From positions 52,716-116,715 of the forward strand of contig CAZTIP010000001.1 in the NCBI GenBank assembly GCA_964613185.1: a stretch of DNA of 64,000 nucleotides, read 5' to 3'. The notes under the pieces were generated by a model. That model had not been told where the DNA came from, made no database searches, and worked only from the letters and a program-made list of their open reading frames with translations. Source of the DNA: Candidatus Woesearchaeota archaeon. Its GTDB lineage: Archaea; Nanobdellota; Nanobdellia; Pacearchaeales; GW2011-AR1. A program made the position numbers and the translations under genes. This document shows positions 5,101 to 33,209 of this stretch, one piece after another (within the stretch, counting starts at the first letter, position 1; every line of letters starts with the position of its first letter).

Positions 5101-5652
5101 TTCTCTTAAATAATCAATTAACATCAAAACTAAACATGTTGCAGTCGTTCCAGCAGAACGGATAGGTCCGCTAAAATTAACAATAAAATAATCTTCTCCT
5201 TTTTTCGTTTTTCCAAGCTGAACGCCAGTATAACCTTCAATAGGAGATGCAACAACTCCCAAAGTTAAATATGCAAACCCTACCCTAATCCCTGCATCAA
5301 TAGCTTCAATTTGATTTTCAAATTTATGAAATTTTTCTTCTGCAATTTCACGGGCAATAACAAAACTAACTGAAGTATCTAATTGTCCATGTTCTTTTTC
5401 CAATTCCAACATTCTTTTTGTAATTTCTTTAATTGGCAAATCCGGATAAATTGTCGTTATCAACCCAACAGATTTTTCAGCCATAGTCATTGCCAAAGGA
5501 ATTTCAACTTTATTCTCAGGATCCAACCCCTTAGACCTTGCCTCATTAGCAATTTTATATTCTTCATCAACTTTTTTAATTAAATTATTAAAATAAGTCT
5601 CATCATCCCATCCACAAATAACTTTTTCATTATCTACCATTTTATTTTCCAT
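2116..5652 (-). CDS. polC: DNA polymerase II (PolD) large subunit DP2, with no intein.
   Basis: 1178 aa. The N-terminus MENKMVDNEKVICGWDDETYF is typical of DP2. It carries a Cys-cluster zinc finger (CKCGNETIYSLCEKCGDK...CRECRTT) and a conserved C-terminal catalytic region. It overlaps the DP1 gene at its start, so the two form an operon. Confidence 0.95.
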   Translation of the reverse strand: MENKMVDNEKVICGWDDETYFNNLIKKVDEEYKIANEARSKGLDPENKVEIPLAMTMAEKSVGLITTIYPDLPIKEITKRMLELEKEHGQLDTSVSFVIAREIAEEKFHKFENQIEAIDAGIRVGFAYLTLGVVASPIEGYTGVQLGKTKKGEDYFIVNFSGPIRSAGTTATCLVLMLIDYLREHFGYAKYDPSEDEIKRYITENTDYHERVTNLQYFPTEEEMYFLAKNLPIQISGDPTEKFEVSNFKDLERVHTNFIRGGMCLTFSEGLAQKAGKGWGRLKSPKKNGMKCTGWDFLEEYLVIHNKREKGSSDVVATYIKDLVAGRPVYGHPSVSGGFRFRYGRSRVAGFSAASIHPATMGISNGFLSHGTQLKIEKPTKGCIITSCDQIDGPIVKLIDGSVRKISNFEESKKIYPEVEEIIYLGDILFPLGDVMDRNANLVKPGYVEEWWKLELDKKLEVTGEEICLDSFDVSFEEAIKLSEKYLLPLHPKYIFYWNQISKDDFYFLIDWIQKAVWRENISDKEISFNENGKLVLPWENSVRENYSKAKRALEILGIEHEVVLDNVVLNKDALPFLKNLGIEFSEDESLKEQILKIKNNPVDEVDVLKIVNGLSKYRIKDKSGDFIGTRMGRPEKAKLRKLTGSPNMLFPVSEQGGRFRSIQDAVKVGFIKSDWPLFYCKCGNETIYSLCEKCGDKTVRKYYCRECRTTLKEPCEKHEVSVNYTYRKIDSKSFFKQATEFLDYNSYDVPPLIKGIRGTSSDGRDFEHLSKGILRAKYNLAVNKDGTIRYDGTEIPLTHFKPFEIRTSVEKLIELGYTHDINGEILSKDDQILELRPHDVVLPSCPVTADEKADKIFLHISKFVDEELEKFYKLPSYYNLKSSEDLVGQLVVCMAPHNCAGVIGRIIGFNELQGLTASPYMHAAMRRDCDGDEAAVMMLMDVLINFSRKFLPSHRGGTQDAPLVLNARIRAGEVDDQILNLEVCDHYPLEVYELAEKEKHSSECKIDNVKNRLNSGKNPFVNLGFTHDSSDFNIGVLNGAYKILPTMKDKVNGQMEIVSKIRAVDTEDVARLIIERHFIRDIRGNLRKFAKQQFRCVACNNKFRRPPLSGVCTNCKGKIIFTISEGSIKKYLEPAMNLAENYNISHYTKEGMELTKMYIESIFGKDNEKQEDLKKWF

Positions 5653-7252
5653 TTTTCACAACTTCCTCAATTTTATTCTTATTAAGTTCCTTAACTTTTG
5701 AAGTTTCTCCCTCGCCAGGCAAATCATCTGAAAAATCTAAAATTTTTATTTCCCTAGTTTTTAAATTAAACAAAGGAACTTTACAAGGGTCTGGAACATT
5801 TCCAACTTTTTCTTCAAATGGTGTGATAGATTGCCAACAAGAACTAGCAATTAATAAAATATTATTATAATTTGAAATTTCCAATCGGTGTTGGTCTCCG
5901 GTAGTCACAATATCTGGAATAATATCTATAACCAAAGGGTCTTTATTCTCACAAGGGATATAATCCATTAAACCATGCATAGGTGCCAAATGCCTTCTCT
6001 TCAAAATTTCTTTAACAACAGTAGTAGGGGAACTATGCCCAAAAGTAGTTCTAATAAAAGGAATTTCATCAATTATCCTATTAATACTTCCTCCATGATA
6101 CATTAAAATTTTAAATCCTCCATCAATTTCTACAAGCGAAGGATTTGGAACTAAATGCAGATTTTCAATCTCGTGTAACCCTGGGGCCCATCTATCTCCA
6201 ATAATTGGTTGAGGTTCTCCAACCCAAACAGAATCATGTTGACCAGGACTCATAATCATTTGAACATCTTTCCTAACTAATTTAAAAATTTCTTCAACTT
6301 TCTTATATTGACCTAGTGAAGTTTTTTCAATTAAATGTTTTTCTTGCCCAGGGTAATGACTAACACCATCAATATTATCTCCATTAATAAACAAATATTT
6401 AACCTTTTTAGCAAGTTCTCTCTGTTTTTCATCACCTTCTTCTCCATTCAACCATTTAATAAATTTCAAAATATTTTTTTCCAAAAACATAGTAGAACCT
6501 GCATGTAAATCACTAATAAATGCGACATATTCATCAAATTCACTATATCTTTTCTCAACTAAAGCAGCTTCTGGATAAATAATTTCATTAGCAAAAAGAA
6601 TATCTGAAGTTCCAGTAACATTAAACGCAACAATATCATCTAAAAGAACCTCTTTTGTTTTATCAAATACTTCTTTCTTATTTTGATTAACTAAAACAAC
6701 TGAATTTCCCGTTAAATCTTCAACTTCTAAAAGTAAATTTTTATTTTTAGTAATTCTTTTATTAACTATAGAAACTATGATTGTATAACTTCCCCTATTT
6801 GTTCCTATTTTTCTTATAGAGCTCAAATTTTCAAAATCTTTTTTTTCCAAAATAGATTTCATAGATTCATAGCGCGCACGAAAATGATTTACGAAATCTT
6901 TCACAACCACTTTCTTTTGAGGAAATGCAGGTGCAGAAATTAATTTTAAACGACCATTTTGAACATCGCCAGTCAAATCATTTTTATTCAAATTTTCAGT
7001 TGGTTCAGTATTTTCAATTCCTCCAAATAAATTTTTAATTTCGTCAACATCTTCAATCAAAAAATTCTTAAATTTATCAAAATGTTTTGAAAACAAACTT
7101 TTAGTAATTACTCTTTCACCAATATCTAAATTTCCCAGAACCTCAATAACTCTTTTAGCTCCAGCTTCGTTCAATGTAGATAGTAAATCTAACATTTCCT
7201 TATCTAAAAGAAACCCTTTTCCCATACAAAGTTTTAATATTTCTGATGCCAT
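5642..7252 (-). CDS. polB: DNA polymerase II (PolD) small subunit DP1, a calcineurin/Mre11-like phosphoesterase.
   Basis: 536 aa with phosphoesterase motifs (DLHAGS, GDNIDG, GHHD-like). Its position between orc1 and DP2 matches the conserved archaeal oriC-orc1-DP1-DP2 arrangement. Confidence 0.9.
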   Translation of the reverse strand: MASEILKLCMGKGFLLDKEMLDLLSTLNEAGAKRVIEVLGNLDIGERVITKSLFSKHFDKFKNFLIEDVDEIKNLFGGIENTEPTENLNKNDLTGDVQNGRLKLISAPAFPQKKVVVKDFVNHFRARYESMKSILEKKDFENLSSIRKIGTNRGSYTIIVSIVNKRITKNKNLLLEVEDLTGNSVVLVNQNKKEVFDKTKEVLLDDIVAFNVTGTSDILFANEIIYPEAALVEKRYSEFDEYVAFISDLHAGSTMFLEKNILKFIKWLNGEEGDEKQRELAKKVKYLFINGDNIDGVSHYPGQEKHLIEKTSLGQYKKVEEIFKLVRKDVQMIMSPGQHDSVWVGEPQPIIGDRWAPGLHEIENLHLVPNPSLVEIDGGFKILMYHGGSINRIIDEIPFIRTTFGHSSPTTVVKEILKRRHLAPMHGLMDYIPCENKDPLVIDIIPDIVTTGDQHRLEISNYNNILLIASSCWQSITPFEEKVGNVPDPCKVPLFNLKTREIKILDFSDDLPGEGETSKVKELNKNKIEEVVKNGK

Positions 7253-7347: not shown

Positions 7348-8556
7348 TTAAAGACAAAGAGCTTCAATTAAAATATCTTCAACTTTATTAAATAAATTAT
7401 TAGGTATTGATAGTTTAATTTCTCTAGTTCTACCATGTCTTCCTTTTGAAATAACCTTTGCATTAATCAAACCCAACATATCAATTTCTGCGATAATATC
7501 TGAAATTCTCCGTTGAGTTAGCTTATCTGTTTTAGTTTGGTTACACAATATACCATAATAATTATAGACATCTCCGGTAAAAAAACTAGATTTATCTTTT
7601 TCCTCTTTAGTTAATTGTAATATTGAATAAAGAACTAATTGGAATTGTTTGGGTTCGCTTTCAACAATATCTAAAATTTTATCTCTTTCCATTTTATTAT
7701 TCGCTAAATCTATATAATCTTCTGAAACAGTTTTCTCACCATCTCTTTCTGAAAGTTCTCCTGCAATTCTAAACAAATCTAAGGCTCGCCTAGCATCTCC
7801 ATGTTCTCTAGCTGCATAAGCAGCACATTTTGCAACAACACCTTCATCAATAACACCCTCATTAAACGCTTCTTCACAACGCCCGTTCAAAATATCTTGA
7901 AGTTGAATTGCATTATAAGGTGGAAAAACAAATTCTTCTTCACCCAATGAAGATCTTACTCGAGGATCTATATTTTCTAAAAAAGTAACATCGTTAGAAA
8001 TTCCTATAATCGAAAGCTGTGCATTTTCAAGCTCTTGATTAAGACGCGTAATAGAATACAAAAAACTATCTCCCATTTTCTTAACTGCCTGGTCAACTTC
8101 ATCAAAAATAAAAACAATTAATTGTTTTTTACTATCAACTAATTCTATAAATTTAGACCAAACCTTGTCAGTAGGGAGTCCTGTTGCAGGAACACTACCA
8201 CCTAATTTTTTAATTAATGCTGCTAAAATCCTATATTCTGTATCTGCAACCTTTCTCAGTTTACAATTAATATATTCAAATCGAACTTCAACATTCAATT
8301 CATTAGCTTTTTTAATAATTTCTTCCATAACATATTGAACAGAAAGAGTCTTACCAGTTCCTGTTTTTCCATAAACAAATAAATTACTAGGTCTATCACC
8401 TCTAAGGGTTGATCCTAAAATACTTGCAATAGACTTAATTTGTTCATCACGGTGAGGAATTGAATCAGGATTATAACGGACTTGTAAAACTTCTTTATTA
8501 TTAAAAAGACTGTTATTTATTGCAGAATCAAAAATATCCCCAAGTTCAACACCCAT
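7348..8556 (-). CDS. orc1: Orc1/Cdc6 replication initiator.
   Basis: 402 aa. Walker A motif GKTGTGKT, Walker B motif IFDEVD, an AAA+ core, and a C-terminal winged helix. Confidence 0.93.
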   Translation of the reverse strand: MGVELGDIFDSAINNSLFNNKEVLQVRYNPDSIPHRDEQIKSIASILGSTLRGDRPSNLFVYGKTGTGKTLSVQYVMEEIIKKANELNVEVRFEYINCKLRKVADTEYRILAALIKKLGGSVPATGLPTDKVWSKFIELVDSKKQLIVFIFDEVDQAVKKMGDSFLYSITRLNQELENAQLSIIGISNDVTFLENIDPRVRSSLGEEEFVFPPYNAIQLQDILNGRCEEAFNEGVIDEGVVAKCAAYAAREHGDARRALDLFRIAGELSERDGEKTVSEDYIDLANNKMERDKILDIVESEPKQFQLVLYSILQLTKEEKDKSSFFTGDVYNYYGILCNQTKTDKLTQRRISDIIAEIDMLGLINAKVISKGRHGRTREIKLSIPNNLFNKVEDILIEALCL

Positions 8557-9907: not shown

Positions 9908-9988
9908 GCTCACATCGCATAATGGTATTGCACCAGGTTCGAACCCTGGGTCTTTCGAGACATCCCCGTTCGATTCGGGGTGTGAGCG
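9908..9988 (+). tRNA. tRNA-Ser (anticodon CGA), class II with a long variable arm. No CCA is encoded.
   Basis: Folded by hand. Acceptor GCTCACA/TGTGAGC with discriminator G. Anticodon stem CCAGG/CCTGG with loop TTCGAAC. Variable arm GTCTTTCGAGAC. T-arm CCCCG-TTCGATT-CGGGG. Confidence 0.85.
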
Positions 9989-10384: not shown

Positions 10385-11005
10385 ATGGACCTAATAAAAG
10401 AGGCATTTTTAAAAATAAAAGAAGATATTTCAGAGTTAAGAGATGAAATTACAAAAATTAATAAAAAAATAAACATTTTACATTCTAAAAACAACATTCA
10501 GACAACTCCAACAGACAGACAAACACAAAATCAGACAATTCAGACACAAAATTCACAATTAAACAAAAATTTACACTTAAATCATCAATTCTCCATAGGA
10601 AATGAAGGGGTTCCAACAGACAGACAGACAAACCAACAGACAGACAAACACATAAAAAAAGACCCTATTTCTGAATTTAAACAAGCAAATGAGGTTCTAA
10701 ATTCATTAGATACTATAAAAAAAGGAATAATGTTTAAATTTAAGAGTTTAACACCCCAAGAAATGTTAGTTTTTAGCACATTATATAGTTTGGAAAGTCA
10801 AAACAACGAAACAACTTACAAAACTCTTGCAAAAGAAATAAATCTCAGTGAGTCCTCTATAAGAGATTATATTAATAAATTGATCAAAAAGGGCGTACCT
10901 ATAGAAAAAATAAGACTAAATAATAAAACTATTTTGTTAAAAATCTCTGAAGATCTAAAAACCGTGACTACTTTAGACACAATCATAAAACTACGTGATT
11001 TGTGA
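10385..11005 (+). CDS. Coiled-coil + low-complexity linker + C-terminal winged-helix DNA-binding protein. It is a paralog of 11287..11958.
   Basis: N-terminal heptad-like MDLIKEAFLKIKEDISELRDEITKINKKI. PTDRQT peptide repeats. C-terminal LTPQEMLVFSTLYSLESQNNETTYKTLAKEINLSESSIRDYINKLIKKG. Confidence 0.6.
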   Translation: MDLIKEAFLKIKEDISELRDEITKINKKINILHSKNNIQTTPTDRQTQNQTIQTQNSQLNKNLHLNHQFSIGNEGVPTDRQTNQQTDKHIKKDPISEFKQANEVLNSLDTIKKGIMFKFKSLTPQEMLVFSTLYSLESQNNETTYKTLAKEINLSESSIRDYINKLIKKGVPIEKIRLNNKTILLKISEDLKTVTTLDTIIKLRDL

Positions 11006-12796: not shown

Positions 12797-12845
12797 ACCA
12801 AAGATTTATTTTTATTTTTATTTTTATTTTTATTTTTATTTTTTC
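12797..12845. repeat. Simple tandem repeat (TTTTTA)n, about 7 units.
   Basis: Read directly from the sequence. Confidence 0.85.
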
Positions 12846-12966
12846 AAAACACTTTCAAAACACTTAGTAACTAAGGTAACCTTAGTGCACGACATCAAAC
12901 CAACAACAGAATTTGAAAACCCCTAAACACCAAAATTATTATAAACTTAGGAGTATTTAATATAAA

Positions 12967-13338
12967 ATGGCGCCATACATTTTTATTCGTCAGGAAGGTC
13001 ATAACGATAATTATCAAATCACAACCGATTTATCAAAAGCTGATGCACAAAAATTGATGCAAAAAACATTAAATTGCTTTGGCACAGAAACAGTTCAAAA
13101 TCCAACATCAAGGAATTATCCGAGGGGAGAAAACCTATTAATTGAAGAAGTGAGCCAAACAGATTATAACTCGAGGAATTATTTCACTGGAGAGGAGCAG
13201 ATAGAAGTTCAATACACTTTAAAATCTAATCGCCCACCAAACCAAATAAAATCTATAATTCAAAAAGGATTAATTTTAATCGAAACTTCAAATCAAAAAT
13301 GGCCAAGCGATCTCAAGGGAATGGAGTTACGAGAGTGA
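12967..13338 (+). CDS. Hypothetical protein (123 aa).
   Basis: Clean ORF with no motif recognised. Confidence 0.45.
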   Translation: MAPYIFIRQEGHNDNYQITTDLSKADAQKLMQKTLNCFGTETVQNPTSRNYPRGENLLIEEVSQTDYNSRNYFTGEEQIEVQYTLKSNRPPNQIKSIIQKGLILIETSNQKWPSDLKGMELRE

Positions 13339-13495
13339 TTAACAAAAGTTCGCACAATAAAAAAACAATCAAAAAACAATCAAAAAATCACAAAAGTTCG
13401 CACAATATACATTGTATGACGTTCTTATATTAAAAAACGAACGGAAATAGCCCGTTTGCACAAAGTTTTTATATGCGAACGGCTTTTTTTGGAAA

Positions 13496-13975
13496 ATGAT
13501 TAAAGAATGTGTTAATTGCAAAAACGAAAAGGAGCACCATGCAAAAGGGCTATGTTACCAATGTTACAAAAAATTAAAATGGGCCCCAAAAATTCTGAAA
13601 TGTAAAAGGTGCCAAAAGAAAAGGGCAATCCATGCAAAAAACCTCTGCGCAAGTTGTTATAATTATACATTTCATTTAGATAAAAATCGCGCGTACAATC
13701 ATCGAAAATCAAATAATGTTGATCTTAAAACTTATCGAAGGACTACAAAAGCCTGCGTAATCTGTGGATTTGACAAAATAGTCGATTTGCACCACATAGA
13801 TTCAAACAAGGAAAACAACTCTCCAAAAAATTTAATTGGATTGTGCCCCAATCACCACAGGATGATAAATAATTATAATTTTCGGCAGGGAATCTTCCAA
13901 ATTCTAAAAGAAAAAGGATTTGACTTGCCTTTGGATGAAAAACTCAATTTCCATAAGAATCAGGACTCTTTGTAG
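13496..13975 (+). CDS. HNH endonuclease with two N-terminal zinc-ribbon modules.
   Basis: HNH motif DLHHIDSNKENNSPKNLIGLCPNHHRMIN. The upstream module CxxC...HAK(G/N)LCxxCY occurs twice. A TATA-like TTTTTATAT sits about 28 bp upstream. The gene ends with TAG. Confidence 0.75.
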   Translation: MIKECVNCKNEKEHHAKGLCYQCYKKLKWAPKILKCKRCQKKRAIHAKNLCASCYNYTFHLDKNRAYNHRKSNNVDLKTYRRTTKACVICGFDKIVDLHHIDSNKENNSPKNLIGLCPNHHRMINNYNFRQGIFQILKEKGFDLPLDEKLNFHKNQDSL

Positions 13976-14209
13976 AACTATCTTTAAATCAAATTTAAGG
14001 CAATTTAAACCTCTAATTCTATTTTTTTGAACAAATAGTCATACAATTCACAAAAACTATCAAAATAAGCAATTTTATTTAAAAAATTAATTCAAAAAGT
14101 GAGAGTTAATCTTTAAAATTTTTTAAAAACAAACAGAAGAGACTAGCTTAAAACCAAATTTTGCCGACGATAAAAAATTCAAGAAAAACCTAAAAAAAAA
14201 GAAATAAAT

Positions 14210-14233
14210 AGTTATTCGTTAAACCGAATAACT
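14210..14233. promoter_or_regulatory. Perfect palindromic dif-like site AGTTATTCG-TTAAAC-CGAATAACT, 62 bp upstream of the tyrosine recombinase gene. It has two 9-bp inverted arms and a 6-bp spacer.
   Basis: Read directly from the sequence. The architecture matches Xer-type core sites: inverted arms around a 6-bp central region. Confidence 0.45.
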
Positions 14234-14295
14234 AAAAAAGGTTTTTAACCCCAAAAATTATAAACTCTTCAAGATTTCAAAGAAAGAAAAAGCAG

Positions 14296-15114
14296 GTGAT
14301 GGAACTTCAAGAATTTTTAAAAAAAATTGAAATAGAATTAAAAATATCTAAAAACTCAGATTATACCTTGAGAAATTATCTTAAATCAAATAAGGATTTT
14401 TTAGAATTTACAAAAAAATCTCCCGAAAATTCAGAACAAGAAGATGTAAAACATTTTATAGCAGAAAATCTCGCAGACAAATCTTCAAACTCTATAATCC
14501 TTTTTTTATCTGCAATAAAATATGCATATTCTTCTGTTTTACAAAAAGACATAACTTCAAATATTAAAAGACCAAGAAAAGAAAAGAGAATTCCAAAAGT
14601 TTTGTCAAAAGAGGAAATAAAAAATTTTTTAGAAGTTCTTCAAAATGAAAAATCAAAATTAATGGTAAGTTTAATTTATGCATGCGGACTTCGAGTTTCA
14701 GAATTAACAAATTTAAAAATTTCTGATTTAAATTTTCCCGAAAAAATTGGATACATTAAACAATCAAAAGGGAAAAAAGACCGATTATTTAATATTCCCA
14801 ATTTTCTATTCGAAGAATTAAAAGACTATACGGAAAAACAAAAAGGAAAAGAATTTTTATTTACTGGAAAAAATGGGAAACTTTCATCAAGAAATTTACA
14901 AAAAATAGTTTCCTCTGCATCAAAAAGGGCAGGGCTTGAAGGAGTCCATTGTCACACCCTAAGACATAGTTTCGCAACACATTTACTCGAGGCAGATACA
15001 GATATAAGGAAAATTCAAGAACTTTTAGGGCACTCCGATTTATCTACTACTCAAATTTATACTCATGTATCTGCAGAAGAATTAAAAAAAATAAAATCTC
15101 CAATAGATTTTTAA
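14296..15114 (+). CDS. Tyrosine site-specific recombinase, XerA/XerC/XerD family.
   Basis: 272 aa. Catalytic signature ...GLRVSEL... then HTLRHSFATHLL... then LLGHSDLSTTQIYTHV, giving the R, HxxR and H/Y residues. Confidence 0.9.
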   Translation: MMELQEFLKKIEIELKISKNSDYTLRNYLKSNKDFLEFTKKSPENSEQEDVKHFIAENLADKSSNSIILFLSAIKYAYSSVLQKDITSNIKRPRKEKRIPKVLSKEEIKNFLEVLQNEKSKLMVSLIYACGLRVSELTNLKISDLNFPEKIGYIKQSKGKKDRLFNIPNFLFEELKDYTEKQKGKEFLFTGKNGKLSSRNLQKIVSSASKRAGLEGVHCHTLRHSFATHLLEADTDIRKIQELLGHSDLSTTQIYTHVSAEELKKIKSPIDF

Positions 15115-15134
15115 ATTAAAATTTAATTAAAAGT

Positions 15135-15377
15135 TTATCTTCGTTTCTTTTTAGAAGAACTTTTTTTAGTAGTTTTTTTAGACTCAACACTACAACAACT
15201 TCCACAAGAATGGGATTTTATTGAAGCAATTATAAAAATAATTACGAACCACCAAACACTGATTCCAAAGAACATGTCTGCAAGTGTTGTCCACAAACTT
15301 AAAACTGCAATTGTAAGCGAAATAGTAGCAATCTTTCCAGTAAATCCGCTCCAACAACCATCATCTTTATTTTTCAT
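15135..15377 (-). CDS. Small 2-TM protein with a CGSCC motif and a polybasic C-terminal tail, hypothetical.
   Basis: ORF-track ORF. Two hydrophobic helices followed by KK/KR-rich residues. Confidence 0.35.
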   Translation of the reverse strand: MKNKDDGCWSGFTGKIATISLTIAVLSLWTTLADMFFGISVWWFVIIFIIASIKSHSCGSCCSVESKKTTKKSSSKKKRR

Positions 15378-15427
15378 AGTTTCACCTCATTTAATTAAGC
15401 AAAAAAAGAAAAACAACTATAAAAACA

Positions 15428-15898
15428 TTACTTTTTCAAAAGTTTGAATATTTCAAAAACATCTTTTCCTTTAATATCTGTAGAAAGTGTTTTCTCTGAT
15501 TCAGAGCAATCTTTCAGTACGCGATTTCCAATATAGGTTGAATCGAAACCTTCTATAGAACGAACTTTACAAACACCATCACAAGAAACCAACTCATCTG
15601 AAAATTCAAAAAGTTTTTCTTTGGCAAAATCCGGAAACTCAGAAAAATTACCATAATCTCCAAAATCAGAAAAATTAGTTTCATTAAAATTTTCTTCATA
15701 ATTTTCAAAGAGGTTCAAACAATCGTCCACGTTTTCACAAGAGTGCTCCAGTTCAGTATAATTTCCAACACAAATTTCAACAGTTTCAAAAACATAATAA
15801 TTATAAAAATAAAATCCTGCCAAAAAAACAATCAATAAAAGGACAACAAAAGAAATAAAAAAAATTTTTAAAATATTTCTCTTAGCCATAAAAATCAA
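15428..15898 (-). CDS. Membrane-anchored Cys-rich secreted protein, hypothetical.
   Basis: N-terminal TM segment. Several Cys pairs and an acidic domain. Confidence 0.45.
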   Translation of the reverse strand: MIFMAKRNILKIFFISFVVLLLIVFLAGFYFYNYYVFETVEICVGNYTELEHSCENVDDCLNLFENYEENFNETNFSDFGDYGNFSEFPDFAKEKLFEFSDELVSCDGVCKVRSIEGFDSTYIGNRVLKDCSESEKTLSTDIKGKDVFEIFKLLKK

Positions 15899-15938
15899 AA
15901 TACGAAATAATTTATAAATTCTTTCCTTTTAGAATTAT

Positions 15939-16472
15939 ATGGTTTGTGCAAAATGCGATTATCAAGATTTAAAAGAATTAAAATTTTTTAACAAAACTCT
16001 TTGTCAAATTTGTGCAAAATTCGCTCCAAAAGAAAAAGAAAAATTAAATGAGTATCTCGATGAAAAAATAGATTGGAAACTTTTAGAAACTTTTAGGAAA
16101 AATAGTCAGGAATCTGGAAAATCAAAGAAAGAGGGAATGGGTAAAAAAGCAAGTGGAGGCGATTTGGTAACTCGTCCTCCAAAAGGTTATGAAGTCATCT
16201 CTGGAAAGTTAATTCCAAATAAGGATGCATCAAAAATACATTCACTATTCAGGACATTTATCAATAGGAACTATTCCCTAAACTCTTTAGCAAGAAATTT
16301 CACACTTTCTACAAATGGTGTAAAAAAAATTCTAACTAATCGGACCTATCTTGGAGAAATAAAATTCAATGGGAAAATCCATAAGGGAAATCATCAAAGC
16401 ATAATCTCTCCAGAAATTTTTTACGCAACTCAAAGGAAGTTGAAAGGTTATCTAAAACCAAGAAAAAAATAA
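15939..16472 (+). CDS. Serine-recombinase remnant. It has an N-terminal zinc ribbon and a large-serine-recombinase 'recombinase' domain but no resolvase catalytic domain.
   Basis: ...PPKGYEVISGKLIPNKDASKIHSLFRTFINRNYSLNSLARNFTLSTNGVKKILTNRTYLGEIKFNGKIHKGNHQSIISPEIFYATQRKL matches the recombinase-domain pattern (PxGY ... iL.N..Y.G ... H.piI..e.F..vQ). No S/R catalytic core is seen. Confidence 0.55.
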   Translation: MVCAKCDYQDLKELKFFNKTLCQICAKFAPKEKEKLNEYLDEKIDWKLLETFRKNSQESGKSKKEGMGKKASGGDLVTRPPKGYEVISGKLIPNKDASKIHSLFRTFINRNYSLNSLARNFTLSTNGVKKILTNRTYLGEIKFNGKIHKGNHQSIISPEIFYATQRKLKGYLKPRKK

Positions 16473-16477
16473 AAAAT
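16451..16477. repeat. Left copy of the 27-bp perfect direct repeat TCTAAAACCAAGAAAAAAATAAAAAAT. It overlaps the stop codon of the recombinase remnant.
   Basis: Identical copy at 17040-17066. Confidence 0.85.
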
Positions 16478-16508
16478 AAAAAAAATTTAATTTGCCCAAA
16501 TAATTTTA

Positions 16509-16997
16509 TTAAATTTCTATTTCAAAAGCACCAACATAGCTTTGTGACCCGTGGTCAGAATTACTTACCAGCGTAGGTATTGTGTAAACTGTTACAACAT
16601 AGTTTCCAGAATCGTGAAAGCCGGTTGAGGTAGAAATTTCTTCAAGAGCCGAACTAACAATATTTCCCGAAGTTCTTGTACTTATCACTGAATTTTCTCC
16701 ATCTGAAATGACTATCTTGACATACGCTGCACCTGTTGTATCACCTATATTTCTAAGGTCCATACTTAATAATCGATTACATTTCAAATCACTTGTACGG
16801 CATCCATATTCTCCTCTTGAATAAAGGGGGTCGGTAACTACATTTTCAGCAATAAAATAAGGGGGGGATACGGCAGGAGAGCCCTGAGGTTCAGAGTTAT
16901 TTGAAACCACTAAGGAAACTATCACTGCAACTATCACCGAAATTAATATTGTTGTTAAAACTTGATTTTTATCCATTTTTTTTAAACCCCCTTTCAA
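16509..16997 (-). CDS. Secreted/membrane-anchored protein, hypothetical. It is the cargo of the DR-flanked cassette.
   Basis: N-terminal TM segment followed by a Ser/Thr/Gly-rich domain. It looks GC-richer than its surroundings by eye. Confidence 0.5.
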   Translation of the reverse strand: MKGGLKKMDKNQVLTTILISVIVAVIVSLVVSNNSEPQGSPAVSPPYFIAENVVTDPLYSRGEYGCRTSDLKCNRLLSMDLRNIGDTTGAAYVKIVISDGENSVISTRTSGNIVSSALEEISTSTGFHDSGNYVVTVYTIPTLVSNSDHGSQSYVGAFEIEI

Positions 16998-17030
16998 ATT
17001 ACTTTCTTTTTAAAGGGGGGGTATTTATAC
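16985..17030. terminator. G/C-clamped hairpin: CCCCCTTT - 17-nt loop - AAAGGGGG. Poly-G runs are otherwise very rare in this sequence.
   Basis: Inverted repeat read from the sequence. It lies between two minus-strand genes. Confidence 0.3.
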
Positions 17031-17039
17031 TTTTTGATT

Positions 17040-17066
17040 TCTAAAACCAAGAAAAAAATAAAAAAT
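17040..17066. repeat. Right copy of the 27-bp perfect direct repeat.
   Basis: Identical to 16451-16477. Confidence 0.85.
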
Positions 17067-17488
17067 CAGGGGTTGTACTTATTTTTTAAAAGATCTAAAA
17101 GAAGACTATCTGTAGTTGCAAGACTTAGGGAATTCCGAACCTTGTAAATTTCTTCATCAAGGTCTTCAAAAAGAATATTTAAATTGGGGGAATGTTCTTG
17201 AAAAACACTTTTTGGAATCAATTCTCCAAAAATTTTTAAAAAACTTCTTTTTTCTACAAGAGAGTCATAGTAATTAAAAGTTGCATTGATATGGTCTTCC
17301 AAATTTTTTTCAAGATTTAATGTTGATTGGTCTGTTAAAGTGTTTTCTAGATATTTTTCAAGAAAATTTTCAATTTCTCCATTAATAGAATAAATTTCAG
17401 AAAGCTCATATTTCATAGAAGAAATTTCATGAGACTCTTTTATCAATTTTCCAATCTTTCCAAAAATAATTTCATACTTTTCTTCCAT
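17066..17488 (-). CDS. Hypothetical protein (140 aa).
   Basis: Clean ORF with no motif. Confidence 0.45.
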   Translation of the reverse strand: MEEKYEIIFGKIGKLIKESHEISSMKYELSEIYSINGEIENFLEKYLENTLTDQSTLNLEKNLEDHINATFNYYDSLVEKRSFLKIFGELIPKSVFQEHSPNLNILFEDLDEEIYKVRNSLSLATTDSLLLDLLKNKYNP

Positions 17489-17502
17489 AAAAATAAATAA
17501 TT

Positions 17503-17904
17503 TTAACGGAAACTCGTTTGTCGCATACTTCGAGCTTTAGAGTCTCCAGGTTTACAAACTTCTTTTCTCCGAGTATCTGCAACAACCAAATTTCTGTCAT
17601 AAGCAACAAAAATCTTTTTTAATTCGTCATCACCTGTAAATTTAAGGATAGCCTTTGCAATCGCAAGTCTTCCTGCTTCAATTTGGCTAGCATTCCCACC
17701 ACCCTTAACATTCAAACGAATATCAAAATTCAATTTTCCCAAAAAATCATCTGCAATGACTAAAGGTTCGTTAATTTCGAGTTGTTGTAAATCAGATAAA
17801 AAAGCTAATGGTCGTTTATTAAAAGTTACTTTTCCAGTCCCTTCTGTAATTGTGGCCTTTGCGATGGCAGTCTTCCGTTTTCCAGAAACAACTATATTAT
17901 TCAT
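17503..17904 (-). CDS. rps9: Ribosomal protein uS9.
   Basis: MNNIVVSGKRKTAIAKATI... and a C-terminal ...KARSMRQTSFR. Confidence 0.9.
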   Translation of the reverse strand: MNNIVVSGKRKTAIAKATITEGTGKVTFNKRPLAFLSDLQQLEINEPLVIADDFLGKLNFDIRLNVKGGGNASQIEAGRLAIAKAILKFTGDDELKKIFVAYDRNLVVADTRRKEVCKPGDSKARSMRQTSFR

Positions 17905-18314
17905 TTAATCAACTCCATAATTTCTTTAATTGTCGAATATTTCATTAGTTTTTTATGGTCAAAAGTTTTAACATTTTTCAAATCAGATTCTTTCAAATCT
18001 CCATTTCCAATATGGCATTTCAATCTCTTAAATGCCTCTCTTCCCTTAGCTCTATCTCTAGGCAACATTCCACGAATCATTCGTTTCAACAACCTATCTT
18101 CTTTACGAATATATTTTGGGCCTTTCAACGAACTTCCACCACCCATTTCTCTTTTTGCAAGAATTTTTTTAGCAAAGACTCTCTTATCTCCAGAAACAAT
18201 TACCTTTTCAGAATTCAAAATATCTACAGAACCACCCTTCAAAAGTTCTTTGGCAACAAAACTTGACATTCGTCCAAAAATTGCACCTTCTCCATCAACA
18301 ATTAATTTATTCAT
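17901..18314 (-). CDS. rpl13: Ribosomal protein uL13.
   Basis: MNKLIVDGEGAIFGRMSSFVAKELLKG... Overlaps the rps9 start in an ATGA arrangement. Confidence 0.9.
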   Translation of the reverse strand: MNKLIVDGEGAIFGRMSSFVAKELLKGGSVDILNSEKVIVSGDKRVFAKKILAKREMGGGSSLKGPKYIRKEDRLLKRMIRGMLPRDRAKGREAFKRLKCHIGNGDLKESDLKNVKTFDHKKLMKYSTIKEIMELIK

Positions 18315-18667
18315 TTTAAAATATTAAAACCATTTAATTCAGGATTTTTCTTCATTTCATCAACAATATAAACAAAACTAGATTTTGCATCTTTAATTTT
18401 TTGGATTGCTTTTTCAGAGGCAGACCAAGCAACAATTTTTTTAGAACTTCCCAAATCCCCTGCACTTAAAATTTTTCCAGCAACTAAAATATCTCCCTCA
18501 ACCATATCCGCTTCTTTCAAATTAATAACTGGCCATCTCCTTTTAGGTCTTGCAAGTTCTTTAGCAACTTCAGGATTAGTTTTTTTTAATTTAATGATAG
18601 TGCTAACTAGTTCAGCATTCATTTTATGCTTCATTCTCTTTTCAATTTTGGTTTTATTTATTTCCAT
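18311..18667 (-). CDS. rpl18e: Ribosomal protein eL18 (L18e).
   Basis: Size, basic composition, and the conserved position upstream of rpl13-rps9. Confidence 0.8.
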   Translation of the reverse strand: MEINKTKIEKRMKHKMNAELVSTIIKLKKTNPEVAKELARPKRRWPVINLKEADMVEGDILVAGKILSAGDLGSSKKIVAWSASEKAIQKIKDAKSSFVYIVDEMKKNPELNGFNILK

Positions 18668-18799
18668 ATTATTTTTTAATTAAATTTTGATTTTCCGACA
18701 ACCGAATTAACGGAGATGGATTCATTGAGAGCCTGCGAACGATGAGTGAACCTTTTCAAAGGTACTTTCGAACCAAGTTCGAATTCTTCGACAACCGAA

Positions 18800-18883
18800 T
18801 GGGCGGAGAAGGATTCGAACCCTCGTAGGCACTAAGCCAATGCGCCCTTAACGCACCCCGTTTGACCACTCCGGCATCCGCCC
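18800..18883 (-). tRNA. tRNA-Leu, class II, copy A. The anticodon loop as written is TTAAGGG, which gives an unusual anticodon AAG.
   Basis: Hand fold of the minus strand. Acceptor GGGCGGA/TCCGCCC with discriminator A. Long variable arm GGCTTAGTGCC. T-arm GAGGG-TTCGAAT-CCTTC. The body is identical to the tRNA-Leu at 32986-33069 except for the 16-nt anticodon stem-loop. Confidence 0.75.
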
Positions 18884-18967
18884 GCGAATTTAATGAAAGG
18901 ATGTTGGACTCGAAGCGATTTCCCATCGCTACTTTCCGGCATCCGCCCGCGAATTTAATCAAACGAA

Positions 18968-32631: not shown

Positions 32632-32760
32632 CGTTAGCTTCTTTGAAGTGCACCCTTGTCCTTTAGGATACGCCCTGGCGGAACCGTTAGTTCAAATCCA
32701 ACGCTCTCGGCAGGATTCGTTGCGAGCCTGAGAGAAACGAGTTAGCTTCTTTGAAGCGCC
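32632..32760. repeat. ~107-bp tandem duplication containing a partial tRNA-Arg 3' end plus its trailer (CCGTTAGTTCAAATCCAACGCTCTCGGCAGGA, x2). It is a pseudo-tRNA/minihelix remnant.
   Basis: Direct repeats read from the sequence: TTAGCTTCTTTGAAG(T/C)GC and GAACCGTTAGTTCAAATCCAACGCTCTCGGCAGGA each occur twice. Confidence 0.6.
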
Positions 32761-32785
32761 TCTTGAACCGTTAGTTCAAATCCAA

Positions 32786-32861
32786 CGCTCTCGGCAGGAT
32801 TTGAACCTGCGACTTCTTCCTTAGGAGGGAAGCACTCTAATCCAGGCTGAGTTACGAGAGC
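32786..32861 (-). tRNA. tRNA-Arg (anticodon CCT).
   Basis: Hand fold. Acceptor GCTCTCG/CGAGAGC. D-stem ACTC/GAGT. Anticodon stem CTTCC/GGAAG with loop CTCCTAA. T-arm GCAGG-TTCAAAT-CCTGC. Confidence 0.85.
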
Positions 32862-32985
32862 AATAAAGTTCGAATTCTCCAACAACCGAATTAACGGAGC
32901 AGGATTCATCGAGGGCCTGCGAACGATGAGTGAACCTTTTTCAAAGGTACTCTCGAATCAAGTTCGAATTCTTCGACAACCGAAT

Positions 32986-33069
32986 GGGCGGAGAAGGATT
33001 CGAACCCTCGTAGGCACTAAGCCAACAGATCTTGAGTCTGCCCCGTTTGACCACTCCGGCATCCGCCCG
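32986..33069 (-). tRNA. tRNA-Leu (anticodon CAA), class II, copy B.
   Basis: Same body as 18800-18883. Anticodon stem-loop GCAGA-CTCAAGA-TCTGT. Confidence 0.85.
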
Positions 33070-33209
33070 CGAATTTAAATGAAGGATGTTGGACTCGAAG
33101 CGATTTCCCATCGCTACTTTCCGGCATCCACTCACGAATTCAAGAGGGGACATTGGACCTGAAGAGATTTTTTCTCGCTACTTTCTGGCATCCCCCAACA
33201 AAAACAAAA
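33070..33209. repeat. Two tandem ~60-nt tRNA-5'-like structured units upstream of tRNA-Leu. Minus strand: GGGGGATGCCAGAAAGTAGCGAGAAAAAATCTCTTCAGGTCCAATGTCCCC and GGATGCCGGAAAGTAGCGATGGGAAATCGCTTCGAGTCCAACATCC.
   Basis: The units share GGATGCC(A/G)GAAAGTAGCGA...TTC(A/G)(A/G)GTCCAA. The terminal stems (GGGGGA/TCCCCC versus GGATG/CATCC) and the internal hairpins (GAGA/TCTC versus AGCGAT/ATCGCT) differ in sequence but preserve pairing. Confidence 0.5.

What the first reader, a model, noticed from the sequence alone, without database searches (positions are those of the whole stretch)
16451..17066. Single-gene cassette flanked by perfect 27-bp direct repeats, with a rare G/C-clamped hairpin
TCTAAAACCAAGAAAAAAATAAAAAAT occurs at 16451-16477, overlapping the stop codon of the serine-recombinase remnant. 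It recurs at 17040-17066, directly after the stop of the next minus-strand gene. The two copies bracket 562 bp that hold one gene for a secreted, Ser/Thr/Gly-rich protein, which looks GC-richer than the flanks. They also bracket the hairpin CCCCCTTT(n17)AAAGGGGG, in a genome almost devoid of G or C runs. A 27-bp perfect repeat is too long to arise by chance. It indicates a target duplication or an att-type recombination product, meaning a small integrated cassette or the edge of a larger element.
Basis: seen in the sequence. Interest (0 to 1): 0.5.

Follow-up and report, generated by a model that had tools for sequence, protein, structure and literature searches.

The report
Single-gene cassette at archaeal insertion hot-spot
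A 589-bp strain-specific insertion carrying one surface-protein gene sits between two perfect 27-bp repeats in a marine DPANN archaeon. Related genomes show the same site empty with one repeat, or holding different genes, so it is a small recombination hot-spot of a broadly familiar kind.

Summary
The 27-mer occurs exactly twice (16451-16477, 17040-17066) and brackets 562 bp with one gene. A second assembly of the same organism is 100% identical across the region.

The predicted empty site exists. Eleven distinct contigs from three lineages about 80% identical in DNA carry a single copy of the 27-mer (up to 7 differences, in L046-48). In them the two flanking genes lie tail to tail, 3-11 nt apart. 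Other contigs from these same lineages carry different genes at the same nucleotide position.

Two points need correcting:
- The "serine-recombinase remnant" is an intact, strongly conserved 177-aa gene with more than 284 homologues and dN/dS about 0.08. Its last seven codons are the native copy of the repeat.
- The G/C hairpin belongs to a conserved promoter/leader module. Another lineage has the same module in front of an unrelated coding sequence.

The most likely mechanism is att-type (Campbell) recombination across a 22-27-bp site. That site doubles as the 3' end of one gene and the oligo-T terminator of the other. Coding-sequence swaps between conserved untranslated regions followed. The enzyme is unidentified: the nearby tyrosine recombinase is housekeeping XerA, and the site is not dif-like or integron-like.

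This is a new variant of a known kind and moderately interesting.

The parts
15939..16472 (+). rec177: an intact, conserved 177-aa gene. It has an N-terminal CxxC...CxxC zinc ribbon and the DNA-binding 'recombinase domain' of large serine recombinases, but no catalytic resolvase domain. Its last 7 codons and stop form the native copy of the repeat.
   Evidence: Pfam PF07508, E 1e-7. Matches residues 25-116 of the A118 integrase structure 4KIS, E 1e-4. Matches phrog_95 integrase. More than 284 homologues at 60-84% identity, 176-179 aa. dN/dS 0.08 and a conserved C-terminus YL(K/R)PRK(K).
16451..16477 (+). Left 27-bp repeat (native copy, attL-like). It holds rec177 codons L-K-P-R-K-K-stop plus AAAAT. 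Its complement ATTTTTTATTTTTTT is an archaeal-type oligo-T terminator for the converging minus-strand gene.
   Evidence: The same sequence occurs as a single copy at the empty site of relatives L003, L004, L049, L050, L051 and L055. The gene's 3' end is conserved across the clade.
16478..16508 (-). Cassette 3' untranslated region of 31 nt. Together with the left repeat it gives T8-A-T6-A-T7 downstream of the cargo stop codon.
   Evidence: Read from the sequence. It aligns to the 3' UTR of the L024/L025 cassette. It has no attC-like structure: the fold is -2.4 kcal/mol, z = +0.16.
16509..16976 (-). Cargo gene of 155 aa. It has an N-terminal transmembrane or signal-anchor helix (residues about 3-27), then a beta-rich, Ser/Thr/Gly/Val-rich ectodomain with 2 Cys. 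It is an orphan protein.
   Evidence: One convincing homologue was found among 5.8 billion proteins: P0002, 73% identity, Tara Oceans; the exhaustive search added only marginal hits. The AF2 model has a mean pLDDT of 50, with an N-terminal helix and 7 strands. The only remote hits, E about 3e-4, are to PKD- and CARDB-repeat giant surface proteins. dN/dS against P0002 is about 0.2.
16977..17001 (-). Predicted 5' leader of about 23-25 nt, with a Shine-Dalgarno-like GAAAGGGGG. Its G-run is the + strand C-run at 16987-16991, ending 10 nt before the ATG.
   Evidence: Inferred from TATA-to-start spacing. In leaderless genes of this window the TATA box ends about 21 nt before the ATG. Here it ends 46 nt before. 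Only 8 of 65 genes have a G-rich motif in the -20..-1 interval.
16987..17019 (.). G/C-clamped inverted repeat CCCCCTTT-n17-AAAGGGGG (12-nt arms, one mismatch). One arm is the SD-like G-run of the leader. The other is the C-run between the TATA box and the predicted transcription start.
   Evidence: As DNA it folds at -8.3 kcal/mol, z = -1.9. The equivalent hairpin in L023 folds at -6.7, z = -2.1. It is unique in the window. No Rfam match.
17022..17036 (-). Cassette promoter: TATA box TATAAATA (17029-17022 on the - strand), preceded by the purine-rich, BRE-like AAAAAG.
   Evidence: Read from the sequence. It matches the TTTATAAA/TATAAA boxes upstream of other genes in the window. It is conserved in L023. 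The unrelated L005 cassette also has a TATA box (TTTATAAA) 11 nt after the repeat.
17040..17066 (+). Right 27-bp repeat (duplicated copy, attR-like). It directly abuts the stop codon of p140 and supplies that gene's oligo-T terminator.
   Evidence: Right copies in three lineages all begin with TCTAAAACC (window, L023, L005/L006), whatever the native form is in that lineage.
17066..17488 (-). p140: a 140-aa gene of unknown function, last gene after S9. It converges on rec177 and forms the other side of the insertion site. It evolves fast.
   Evidence: It is 57% identical in protein in the L003 lineage, where S9 is 95% identical. dN/dS is 0.17. It is absent in the more distant relatives L037 and L038, where rec177 abuts S9 directly.

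Best explanation
The 589-bp unit (562 bp plus one repeat) is a small, non-autonomous, integrated gene cassette in the chromosome of a marine Pacearchaeota-like (DPANN) archaeon. It contains its own TATA promoter, a short leader, one gene for a membrane-anchored surface protein, and a terminator.

It lies exactly at the tail-to-tail junction of two core genes, rec177 and p140. In uninterrupted genomes these genes are 3-11 nt apart. One A/T-rich 27-mer there serves both as the last codons of rec177 and, on the other strand, as the oligo-T terminator of p140.

The most likely origin is Campbell-type recombination. A copy of this 22-27-bp sequence on incoming, probably circular, DNA recombined with the chromosomal copy. 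That leaves one copy on each side, so both flanking genes keep intact 3' ends.

The junction is a hot-spot: related populations have it empty, or filled with unrelated membrane or secreted-protein genes. Within one lineage, whole coding sequences have been exchanged between the same 5' module and 3' UTR.

Shown: the insertion, the duplication, the empty site, the alternative occupants, and the conserved module. Inferred: the circular intermediate, crossover within the repeat, and the promoter and terminator roles. Unknown: whether a site-specific recombinase acting in trans or host homologous recombination catalyses it.
For: 1. The repeat pair is real and non-random, and a second assembly reproduces it.
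2. Empty sites with a single copy:
   - L003/L053, L004, L050, L051, L055: TGA followed directly by ATTTTTTATTTTTTTCTTGGTTTTAAA, 26/27 identical.
   - L049: 26/27 identical, of the TCTAAAACC type.
   - L046-48: empty, with a more diverged copy (up to 7 differences from the 27-mer).
   - The alignments break exactly at window 16477 and 17042.
3. The outgroups L028-L034 (73% rec177 protein identity) have rec177 overlapping the p140 homologue by 4 nt. In L037 and L038 rec177 abuts S9. Empty is therefore the ancestral state.
4. Presence/absence polymorphism within one population:
   - Contigs with the identical p140 protein P0005: empty in L003/L004, occupied in L005/L006.
   - Contigs with the identical rec177 protein P0125: empty in L053/L055, occupied in L052/54/56/57/58.
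5. There are at least four different occupants at the same position: the 155-aa type (window, L024, L025), a 170-aa Cys-rich secreted protein (L023), a third 3' end (L027), and a multi-pass membrane protein (L005/6, L052...).
6. The right-hand copies start at the same nucleotide (within 2 nt) and read TCTAAAACC in all three lineages. The native left copies read TCT, TTTA or TTTG. In the L003/L005 population left = TTT and right = TCT. That is expected if the cassette-proximal part of attR comes from the incoming DNA, and not expected from in-situ target duplication.
7. L059 and L023 rec177 genes are 98.3% identical, yet 3 of their 9 differences fall in the last 30 nt. These convert TTG to the right-copy form CTA, which suggests exchange between the two copies.
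8. Several contigs (L026, L054, L056, L058, L059, L060) end 7-69 nt after the rec177 stop. This is what branching of an assembly graph at a polymorphic site would produce.
9. The promoter/hairpin module is 85% identical in L023 in front of an unrelated CDS. The first 21 nt of L002 are identical to the L023 module.
Against: - No recombinase can be assigned. The only tyrosine recombinase nearby is the XerA equivalog, and it is syntenic in the closer relatives, including all those with empty sites.
- The 27-mer has no dyad symmetry like a dif site or a typical tyrosine-recombinase core.
- No circular or excised form was seen, and none could be looked for because reads are not available.
- The boundary of the left copy is not fixed: 27 nt in the window, 22 nt in L052-type alleles.
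- The L023 lineage carries an extra partial copy of rec177 sequence from further upstream, GTTTGAAAGTTATTT(GA). A single fixed att core does not obviously explain this.
- The window cassette appears old. Its CDS is 75.6% identical to the L002/L025 copy (pS 0.53), while the flanking rec177 is 81% identical (pS 0.57). The perfect 27/27 identity therefore cannot be read simply as recent insertion.
- All right-hand copies could descend from a single ancient duplication that spread by homologous recombination.
Confidence: 0.55

Rival explanations
1. One ancient duplication, then allelic replacement. The 27-mer was duplicated once, by any mechanism, in an ancestor. Since then the two copies act only as terminators. 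The locus behaves as a 'replacement' flexible islet. Alternative genes are exchanged between strains by ordinary homologous recombination in the conserved flanks (rec177, p140, the shared 5' module and 3' UTR). Empty alleles arise by deletion between the repeats.
For: - Cassette and flanks have diverged to a similar extent between the window and the L023 lineage.
- CDS-precise swaps occur between identical UTRs: L023 vs L027 share the 3' UTR up to the stop codon, and L023 vs L002 share the module up to ATGGATAAAAA.
- The same TCTAAAACC form is found in all right-hand copies.
- The L023 right copy is degenerate, with about 5 differences from its left copy, as an old duplicate would be.
- No recombinase or att-like symmetry was found.
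Against: - The L005-type cassette shares neither promoter nor CDS with the 155-aa type. It sits in a clade whose other members (L046-49 and many L003-type contigs) are empty. A single origin therefore needs extra losses or transfers.
- The outgroups are empty.
- The repeats in the window are 27/27 identical although the cassette appears old.
- This model does not explain how the first duplication arose.
Confidence: 0.3
2. Target-site duplication by a transposase- or casposase-like enzyme that makes cuts staggered by 22-27 nt, or fill-in repair of a staggered break at the convergent terminator.
For: A perfect direct duplication of host sequence lies immediately on both sides of the insert. The repeat length is in the range of Cas1-type repeat duplication (own knowledge).
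Against: - The cassette has no terminal inverted repeats.
- There is no transposase, casposase or cas gene in the cassette or the neighbourhood.
- In the L003/L005 population the duplicate differs from the native target (TCT vs TTT).
- Repeat length differs between cassettes, 27 vs 22 nt.
- A 27-bp duplication is far longer than those of known transposons (own knowledge).
Confidence: 0.05
3. Assembly artefact: a loop in the assembly graph at a shared 27-mer has stitched foreign sequence into the chromosome.
For: The source is a metagenome-assembled genome. Exact repeats about one k-mer long can create such loops (own knowledge).
Against: - A second assembly of the run, a 5,990-bp Logan contig, reproduces the whole arrangement at 100% identity. 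Logan's k-mer of 31, longer than the repeat, is from memory.
- Independent samples and assemblers give the homologous occupied arrangement: Tara contigs L023, L024 and L025.
- The cassette's codon usage (GC3) is host-like.
Confidence: 0.02

Closest known systems
Cis-mobilizable elements (CIMEs) and other att-flanked genomic islets integrated at the 3' end of a protein-coding gene, such as streptococcal elements at the 3' ends of fda, rpsI, rpmG and rplL (PMC7563491)
   Same: - Flanked by direct repeats that duplicate the 3' end of a conserved gene, so the target gene stays intact.
- No recombination genes of its own.
- Carries only cargo.
- The site is re-used by different elements.
- The occupied/empty state is polymorphic.
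   Different: - It is in an archaeon.
- It is far smaller than a gene-carrying CIME: 0.59 kb against 1.2-13 kb.
- No related autonomous element (ICE, IME or provirus) with an integrase for this site is known, and none was found in viral collections.
- There is no evidence that it is a decayed larger element.
- The repeat also serves as a shared bidirectional terminator and coding end between convergent genes.
Integron gene cassettes, including the archaeal integrons of PMC9668308
   Same: - Single-gene mobile units inserted at one fixed chromosomal position.
- Different cassettes at the same site in different strains.
- A tyrosine recombinase gene lies within 2 kb.
- One contig hints at tandem cassettes (L002).
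   Different: - The recombinase is XerA (230 bits against a cutoff of 220) and fails the integron-integrase cutoff (193 against 265). It is also present in the closer relatives, including every one with an empty site.
- There is no attC-like imperfect palindrome at the cassette's 3' end; the 31-nt UTR does not fold.
- Each cassette has its own promoter.
- The flanking repeats are long, exact and direct, rather than a 7-bp core.
IMEX elements that integrate at dif using host Xer recombinases
   Same: - A small element without an integrase, next to a host Xer gene.
- The duplicated site, 27 bp, is about the size of a dif site (28 bp).
   Different: - The 27-mer lacks the 11-6-11 inverted-repeat architecture that defines bacterial and archaeal dif (PMC2958812).
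- It lies about 8 kb from the Orc1/Cdc6 gene, not in a terminus region. That this marks the replication origin is inferred from gene identity only.
Replacement-type flexible genomic islands of marine microbes, i.e. strain-variable surface-protein loci between conserved flanks (own knowledge)
   Same: - Non-homologous genes for envelope proteins occupy the same locus in co-occurring strains.
- The flanks are conserved.
- The exchange is consistent with homologous recombination.
   Different: - The scale is one gene, not tens of kilobases.
- A precise duplicated junction sequence and true empty alleles are present.
- The swaps are precise to the coding sequence, behind a shared promoter module.

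Membership tests
att-flanked non-autonomous integrative element (CIME-like islet) | Direct repeats at both ends that duplicate the integration target, here the 3' end of a conserved gene | tested here: met
   27/27 bp repeat. The left copy is the native rec177 3' end.
att-flanked non-autonomous integrative element (CIME-like islet) | An empty site with a single att copy exists in related genomes | tested here: met
   L003/L053, L004, L049, L050, L051, L055 and L046-48.
att-flanked non-autonomous integrative element (CIME-like islet) | No integrase, excisionase or transfer genes inside the element | tested here: met
   There is one ORF only, with no Pfam, NCBIfam, PHROG or PADLOC match.
att-flanked non-autonomous integrative element (CIME-like islet) | The att sites are recognised by the integrase of a related autonomous element, and excision or mobilisation in trans has been shown | not testable with these tools
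   No autonomous relative was found: viral contig scans were negative. Testing needs reads or experiments.
att-flanked non-autonomous integrative element (CIME-like islet) | Derived by decay of a larger ICE, IME or provirus | tested here: not met
   No pseudogene fragments are present. The cassette is a compact promoter-gene-terminator unit, and the surroundings are syntenic core genes.
Integron / gene cassette | An IntI-type integrase (with the IntI-specific additional domain) adjacent to the array | tested here: not met
   The 272-aa recombinase scores 230.4 against the XerA_Arch cutoff of 220, and 193.3 against the integron-integrase cutoff of 265. It is a syntenic core gene in the closer relatives.
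Integron / gene cassette | An attC site (55-141-nt imperfect palindrome that folds as a single strand) at the 3' end of the cassette ORF | tested here: not met
   Only 31 nt separate the stop codon from the repeat. The fold is -2.4 kcal/mol, z = +0.16. No attC covariance model was available.
Integron / gene cassette | Promoterless cassettes expressed from a common Pc promoter | tested here: not met
   The window, L023 and L005 cassettes each have a consensus TATA box within about 12 nt of the right repeat. This is a sequence-based inference.
IMEX (Xer/dif-exploiting element) | An integration site with dif architecture: 11-bp inverted arms and a 6-bp spacer | tested here: not met
   No 28-nt frame lying mostly within the 27-mer scores above background. 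The only high-scoring frame, 9/11 at 17060-17087, lies almost entirely in the p140 3' end. By my own reading of the L003 sequence it is not conserved there (definition from PMC2958812).
Transposon / MITE with target-site duplication | Terminal inverted repeats and a short target-site duplication; multiple copies at different sites | tested here: not met
   No inverted repeats at the cassette termini. The window has one copy only. All homologous copies found lie at this locus, except L002, whose context is unknown.
Large serine recombinase (for the 177-aa neighbour) | An N-terminal catalytic resolvase domain with the serine nucleophile | tested here: not met
   Only PF07508, the recombinase DNA-binding domain, matches (residues 118-169; 82-166 against A118 Int). 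The N-terminus is a CxxC..CxxC zinc ribbon. The protein is conserved at 176-179 aa, so it is not a truncation.

The most novel reading that the evidence does not exclude
The rec177/p140 junction is a dedicated cassette 'landing pad' of a previously undescribed archaeal gene-capture system. rec177 is a catalytically inactive descendant of large serine recombinases that keeps only the att-binding domain and a zinc ribbon. In this reading it binds the 27-mer at its own 3' end and directs a recombinase acting in trans, XerA or another enzyme, to insert and excise promoter-bearing single-gene cassettes. The cassettes encode variable surface proteins and share a conserved G/C-hairpin 5' module that acts as the cassette-side recombination or regulatory signal. 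This would be a functional analogue of integrons in DPANN archaea.
Probability: 0.1. Interest if true: 0.8.

Novelty: new variant of a known kind. Interest (0 to 1): 0.42.

Why it matters
DPANN archaea such as Pacearchaeota are uncultivated, have tiny genomes, and are thought to depend on cell-surface contact with hosts. How they vary their surface proteins is largely unknown.

This locus is a nucleotide-resolved example of a single-gene insertion and replacement hot-spot for envelope proteins. Occupied, empty and alternative alleles coexist in ocean populations. It gives a concrete site, a 27-mer between two conserved genes, that can be tracked in metagenomic reads to measure gain, loss and exchange of cassettes.

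If a dedicated recombination system uses the site, it would be a new archaeal route of gene capture. If it does not, the locus still shows how a shared terminator/coding overlap between convergent genes can be duplicated so that an insertion damages neither gene.

Tried and rejected
1. Assembly artefact. Rejected: an independent Logan contig is 100% identical, and homologous occupied loci occur in other samples.
2. 27-mer as a common intergenic motif. Rejected within reach: 2 copies in the window. Its 24-nt core found 16 JGI contigs, of which only one is related. There were 0 viral contigs. The rest of the source genome (216-kb contig and others) could not be searched, because it is not in the GTDB representative set scanned.
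3. Edge of a larger integrated element bounded by tRNA-Ser (9908-9988). Rejected: the intervening genes are syntenic in the closer relatives, including all those with empty sites.
4. Integron and IMEX/dif. Rejected.
5. Transposon or MITE. Rejected: no inverted termini.
6. Function of the cargo:
   - No Pfam, NCBIfam, PHROG or PADLOC hits.
   - The exhaustive profile search found only two marginal hits.
   - The AF2 model was too poor (pLDDT 50) for a fold search, so none was run.
7. Viral origin of the cargo genes, rec177 or the hairpin module. No related viral contigs. Five exact 17-mer hits are unrelated ribosome-binding-site contexts.
8. Known RNA family in the hairpin or leader. None at E <= 1.
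9. Foreign composition. GC3 is host-like.
10. A dif-like inverted repeat at 17059-17088 (10/11 with an 8-nt spacer). It is built of A-run/T-run sequence. By my own reading of the L003 sequence it is not conserved there. Dismissed.
11. A 26-nt, 77% inverted match between the rec177 3' end (16432-16457) and the hairpin arm (16980-17005). Noted but not interpretable in 30%-GC DNA.
Full report
OBSERVATION

The 27-mer TCTAAAACCAAGAAAAAAATAAAAAAT is present at 16451-16477 and 17040-17066, and nowhere else in the window even with three mismatches. None of 100 shuffles produced a match. It is the longest exact repeat in the window that is neither tRNA-associated nor a microsatellite. Identity ends sharply at both borders.

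The left copy holds the last seven codons and the stop of the + strand ORF 15939-16472. The right copy ends on the last base of the stop codon of the - strand ORF 17066-17488. Between them lie 562 bp with one ORF, 16509-16976 on the - strand, 155 aa.

The G/C-clamped inverted repeat is at 16987-17019. Four of the window's 37 G or C runs of five or more fall inside the cassette, P about 4e-4.

A Logan assembly of run SRR8146441 gives a 5,990-bp contig that is 100% identical to window 12814-18803. This makes a mis-join by one particular assembler unlikely.

HOST AND NEIGHBOURHOOD

The window comes from a 30%-GC archaeon. Evidence:
- An Orc1/Cdc6-like ORF (7348-8556) and a DNA polymerase II small-subunit-like ORF (5642-7252), identified by my reading of the translations.
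- An archaeal-type ribosomal/RNA-polymerase gene block running down to L18e-L13-S9 on the minus strand, identified by Pfam hits on the syntenic relatives.

Homologues of its proteins are annotated as Pacearchaeota, Woesearchaeota or Nanoarchaeota MAGs. The close relatives come from Tara Oceans and other ENA and JGI metagenomes.

Upstream of the site lie an HNH protein, a tyrosine recombinase, two small membrane or secreted proteins, and the 177-aa gene. This whole block, in this order, is conserved in the closer relatives (70-85% DNA identity). It is chromosome backbone, not part of a mobile element.

THE 177-AA GENE IS NOT A REMNANT

- It matches only the DNA-binding 'recombinase domain' of large serine recombinases: PF07508; A118 integrase structure residues 25-116; phrog_95.
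- An N-terminal CxxC...CxxC zinc ribbon precedes that domain, and there is no catalytic domain.
- It has more than 284 homologues at 60-84% identity, nearly all 176-179 aa.
- dN/dS is about 0.08 against two sister lineages, and the C-terminus YL(K/R)PRK(K) is conserved.

The left repeat is therefore native sequence and the right repeat is the duplicate.

THE EMPTY SITE EXISTS

Contigs L003/L053, L004, L050, L051 and L055 form one lineage. L049 is a second and L046-48 a third. All are about 80% identical to the window in DNA. In all of them the 140-aa gene and the 177-aa gene lie tail to tail, 3-11 nt apart, with a single copy of the 27-mer. That copy is 26/27 identical in the first two lineages; in L046-48 it has up to 7 differences.

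Alignments to the window break at 16477 and 17042, so exactly the cassette plus one repeat is missing.

More distant relatives are also uninterrupted. In L028-34 the two genes overlap by 4 nt. In L037 and L038 the 177-aa gene abuts S9 directly. Empty is therefore the ancestral state.

Across the wider clade, the interval between the 177-aa gene and S9 ranges from 7 nt to 3.9 kb and holds unrelated genes. The 140-aa gene itself evolves fast: 57% protein identity where S9 is 95%.

A HOT-SPOT WITH ALTERNATIVE OCCUPANTS

Contigs that share the identical 140-aa protein are either empty (L003, L004) or continue after an exact 27-mer into a different gene with its own TATA box (L005, L006). That gene encodes a membrane protein.

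Contigs that share the identical 177-aa protein are either empty (L053, L055) or continue directly after the stop codon into the 3' end of a multi-pass membrane protein gene (L052, L054, L056, L057, L058). These are probably the two ends of one cassette. That is an inference, because the contigs do not overlap. If so, its repeat is 22 nt long with one mismatch.

In a third lineage (L023-27, L059) the site holds one of the following:
- a 73%-identical homologue of the window's cargo (L024, L025);
- a 170-aa Cys-rich secreted protein (L023);
- a third coding end (L027).

Several contigs stop within 7-69 nt of the 177-aa gene's stop codon. This is what branching of an assembly graph at a polymorphic site would produce.

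ANATOMY OF THE CASSETTE

Reading the minus strand from the right repeat, the cassette contains in order:
- AATCAAAAAG, then TATAAATA (a BRE/TATA-like promoter);
- a C7 run;
- 23 nt;
- GGGGG;
- TTTAAAAAAA, then the ATG.

In this genome most first genes have their TATA box ending about 21 nt before the ATG, which implies leaderless mRNAs. The cargo's TATA box ends 46 nt before the ATG. That predicts a leader of about 23-25 nt carrying a Shine-Dalgarno-like GAAAGGGGG.

On this reading the C-run arm of the hairpin lies upstream of the transcription start. The hairpin would then form in RNA only on read-through from the 140-aa gene. This is inference.

The module is 85% identical in L023, where it precedes the unrelated 170-aa CDS. 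Hairpin potential is retained there (-6.7 kcal/mol, z = -2.1, against -8.3, z = -1.9 in the window). It occurs nowhere else in the window or in the other loci fetched. It matches no Rfam family.

The cargo protein has an N-terminal transmembrane helix and a beta-rich ectodomain with two cysteines. Only one convincing homologue was found in 5.8 billion proteins. The exhaustive profile search added only marginal hits, E about 3e-4, to PKD- and CARDB-repeat giant surface proteins. It is under purifying selection, dN/dS about 0.2. Its higher GC reflects amino-acid composition, because GC3 is host-like.

MECHANISM

The evidence favours recombination at an att-like sequence over de novo target duplication:
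- The right-hand copies begin at the same nucleotide (within 2 nt) and read TCTAAAACC in all three lineages. The native left copies read TCT, TTTA or TTTG.
- In the L003/L005 population the left copy is TTT and the right copy is TCT. That is the pattern expected when the cassette-proximal part of attR comes from incoming DNA.
- Two 98.3%-identical alleles of the 177-aa gene (L023, L059) differ by a cluster of changes in the last 30 nt. These convert TTG to the right-copy form CTA, which suggests exchange between the copies.
- The L005-type cassette shares neither promoter nor CDS with the 155-aa type, and it lies in an otherwise empty clade. This argues for at least two independent gains at the same position.

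Several findings count against a simple, recent site-specific event:
- The window's cargo differs from its L002/L025 counterpart about as much as the flanking genes differ (75.6% against 81% identity; pS 0.53 against 0.57). The insertion is therefore probably old. The 27/27 identity then needs homogenisation, re-integration or functional constraint to explain it.
- The left boundary varies, 27 nt against 22 nt.
- The L023 lineage carries an extra partial copy of more upstream 177-aa-gene sequence inside the cassette's 3' UTR.
- Within that lineage, coding sequences have been exchanged precisely between the shared 5' module (up to ATGGATAAAAA) and the shared 3' UTR (from the stop codon). This looks like homologous recombination using conserved cassette ends.

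No enzyme can be named:
- The neighbouring tyrosine recombinase meets the XerA equivalog cutoff and fails the integron-integrase cutoff.
- The 27-mer has no dif-like dyad symmetry (definition in PMC2958812).
- No attC-like structure, inverted termini, transposase, defence gene or viral gene is present.

COMPARISON WITH KNOWN SYSTEMS

The closest known kind is the att-flanked, recombinase-less integrative islet at the 3' end of a conserved gene, such as streptococcal CIMEs (PMC7563491). This element differs from those as follows:
- it is archaeal;
- it carries a single gene;
- it shows no sign of being a decayed larger element;
- it has no known autonomous partner.

It behaves somewhat like an integron platform: one site, and interchangeable single-gene cassettes. 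It fails every defining integron feature tested (definitions in PMC9668308). It also resembles the replacement-type flexible islands of marine microbes, in miniature.

VERDICT

Three corrections apply: the neighbour gene is not a remnant, the hairpin belongs to a promoter module, and the insertion is not recent.

I classify this as a new variant of a known kind, with moderate interest. The unexcluded novel reading is that the recombinase-domain-only protein and the conserved module form a dedicated archaeal cassette-capture system. I give that about 10%.

Noticed in passing
window 15939-16472; loci L003-L060: The 177-aa protein (zinc ribbon plus large-serine-recombinase DNA-binding domain, no catalytic domain) forms a highly conserved family. 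It has more than 284 members, 176-179 aa, dN/dS about 0.08. In the 10 related archaeal MAG loci fetched (Pacearchaeota, Woesearchaeota or Nanoarchaeota) it converges on the L18e-L13-S9 operon wherever the contig reaches that far. Databases call it 'recombinase family protein', but it cannot be a recombinase. Its function is unknown.
   Followed up: partly
window 18698-18966 and 32882-33130: The two tRNA-Leu genes share about 250 bp including flanks. The shared sequence includes a conserved upstream element, on the minus strand GGATGCCGGAAAGTAGCGATGGGAAATCGCTTCGAGTCCAACATCC, and repeated TTCGGTTGTCG..AATTCGAAC motifs downstream. At 18870-18901 and 18935-18966 the 5' end of tRNA-Leu(aag) plus its upstream sequence is locally duplicated (32 nt, 94%).
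   Followed up: no
window 32681-32717 and 32765-32801: An exact 37-nt direct repeat, 84 nt apart, overlaps the 3' end of tRNA-Arg(cct). It could be a partial tRNA duplication (att-like) or a processing element.
   Followed up: no
window 17066-17488; L028, L037, L038: The 140-aa gene after S9 evolves much faster than its neighbours: 57% protein identity where S9 is 95%, and dN/dS 0.17. It is absent from the more distant relatives L037 and L038, where the 177-aa gene abuts S9. It may itself be an older insertion at the same junction.
   Followed up: partly
L002:485-574 (Tara contig): The P0002 cargo homologue is followed by a different flank from the one in L024/L025. That flank has a TATA-like AATATAAG and a GCCC...GGGGC hairpin, which resembles the cassette 5' module. 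This could be the start of a second, tandem cassette.
   Followed up: partly
L023:5634-5665, L024, L025, L027, L059: Inside the cassette's 3' UTR of this lineage is a 15-17-nt partial direct copy, GTTTGAAAGTTATTT(GA). It repeats 177-aa-gene sequence lying just upstream of, and overlapping the first bases of, the repeat segment. It looks like a scar of an earlier recombination event and is unexplained.
   Followed up: partly
L059 vs L023, last 30 nt of the 177-aa gene: Two alleles 98.3% identical overall have 3 of their 9 differences in the last 30 nt. These include TTG to CTA, which matches the right-hand repeat type. This is a possible gene-conversion tract between the repeat copies.
   Followed up: partly
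window-wide (65 ORFs of 110 aa or more): Most first genes have a TTTATAAA-type box ending about 21 nt before the ATG, which implies predominantly leaderless mRNAs. Only 8 of 65 have a G-rich SD-like motif, and the cargo gene is one of them.
   Followed up: partly
window 12805-12843: A (TTTATT)n microsatellite. The Logan contig L001 ends inside it, and the region 12927-13391 is about 300 nt longer than in relative L046.
   Followed up: no
window 10507-10662: Imperfect CAGACAGACAAAC-type repeats lie inside ORF 10385-11005 and encode a repetitive TDRQT/NQQT segment of an HTH-domain protein.
   Followed up: no
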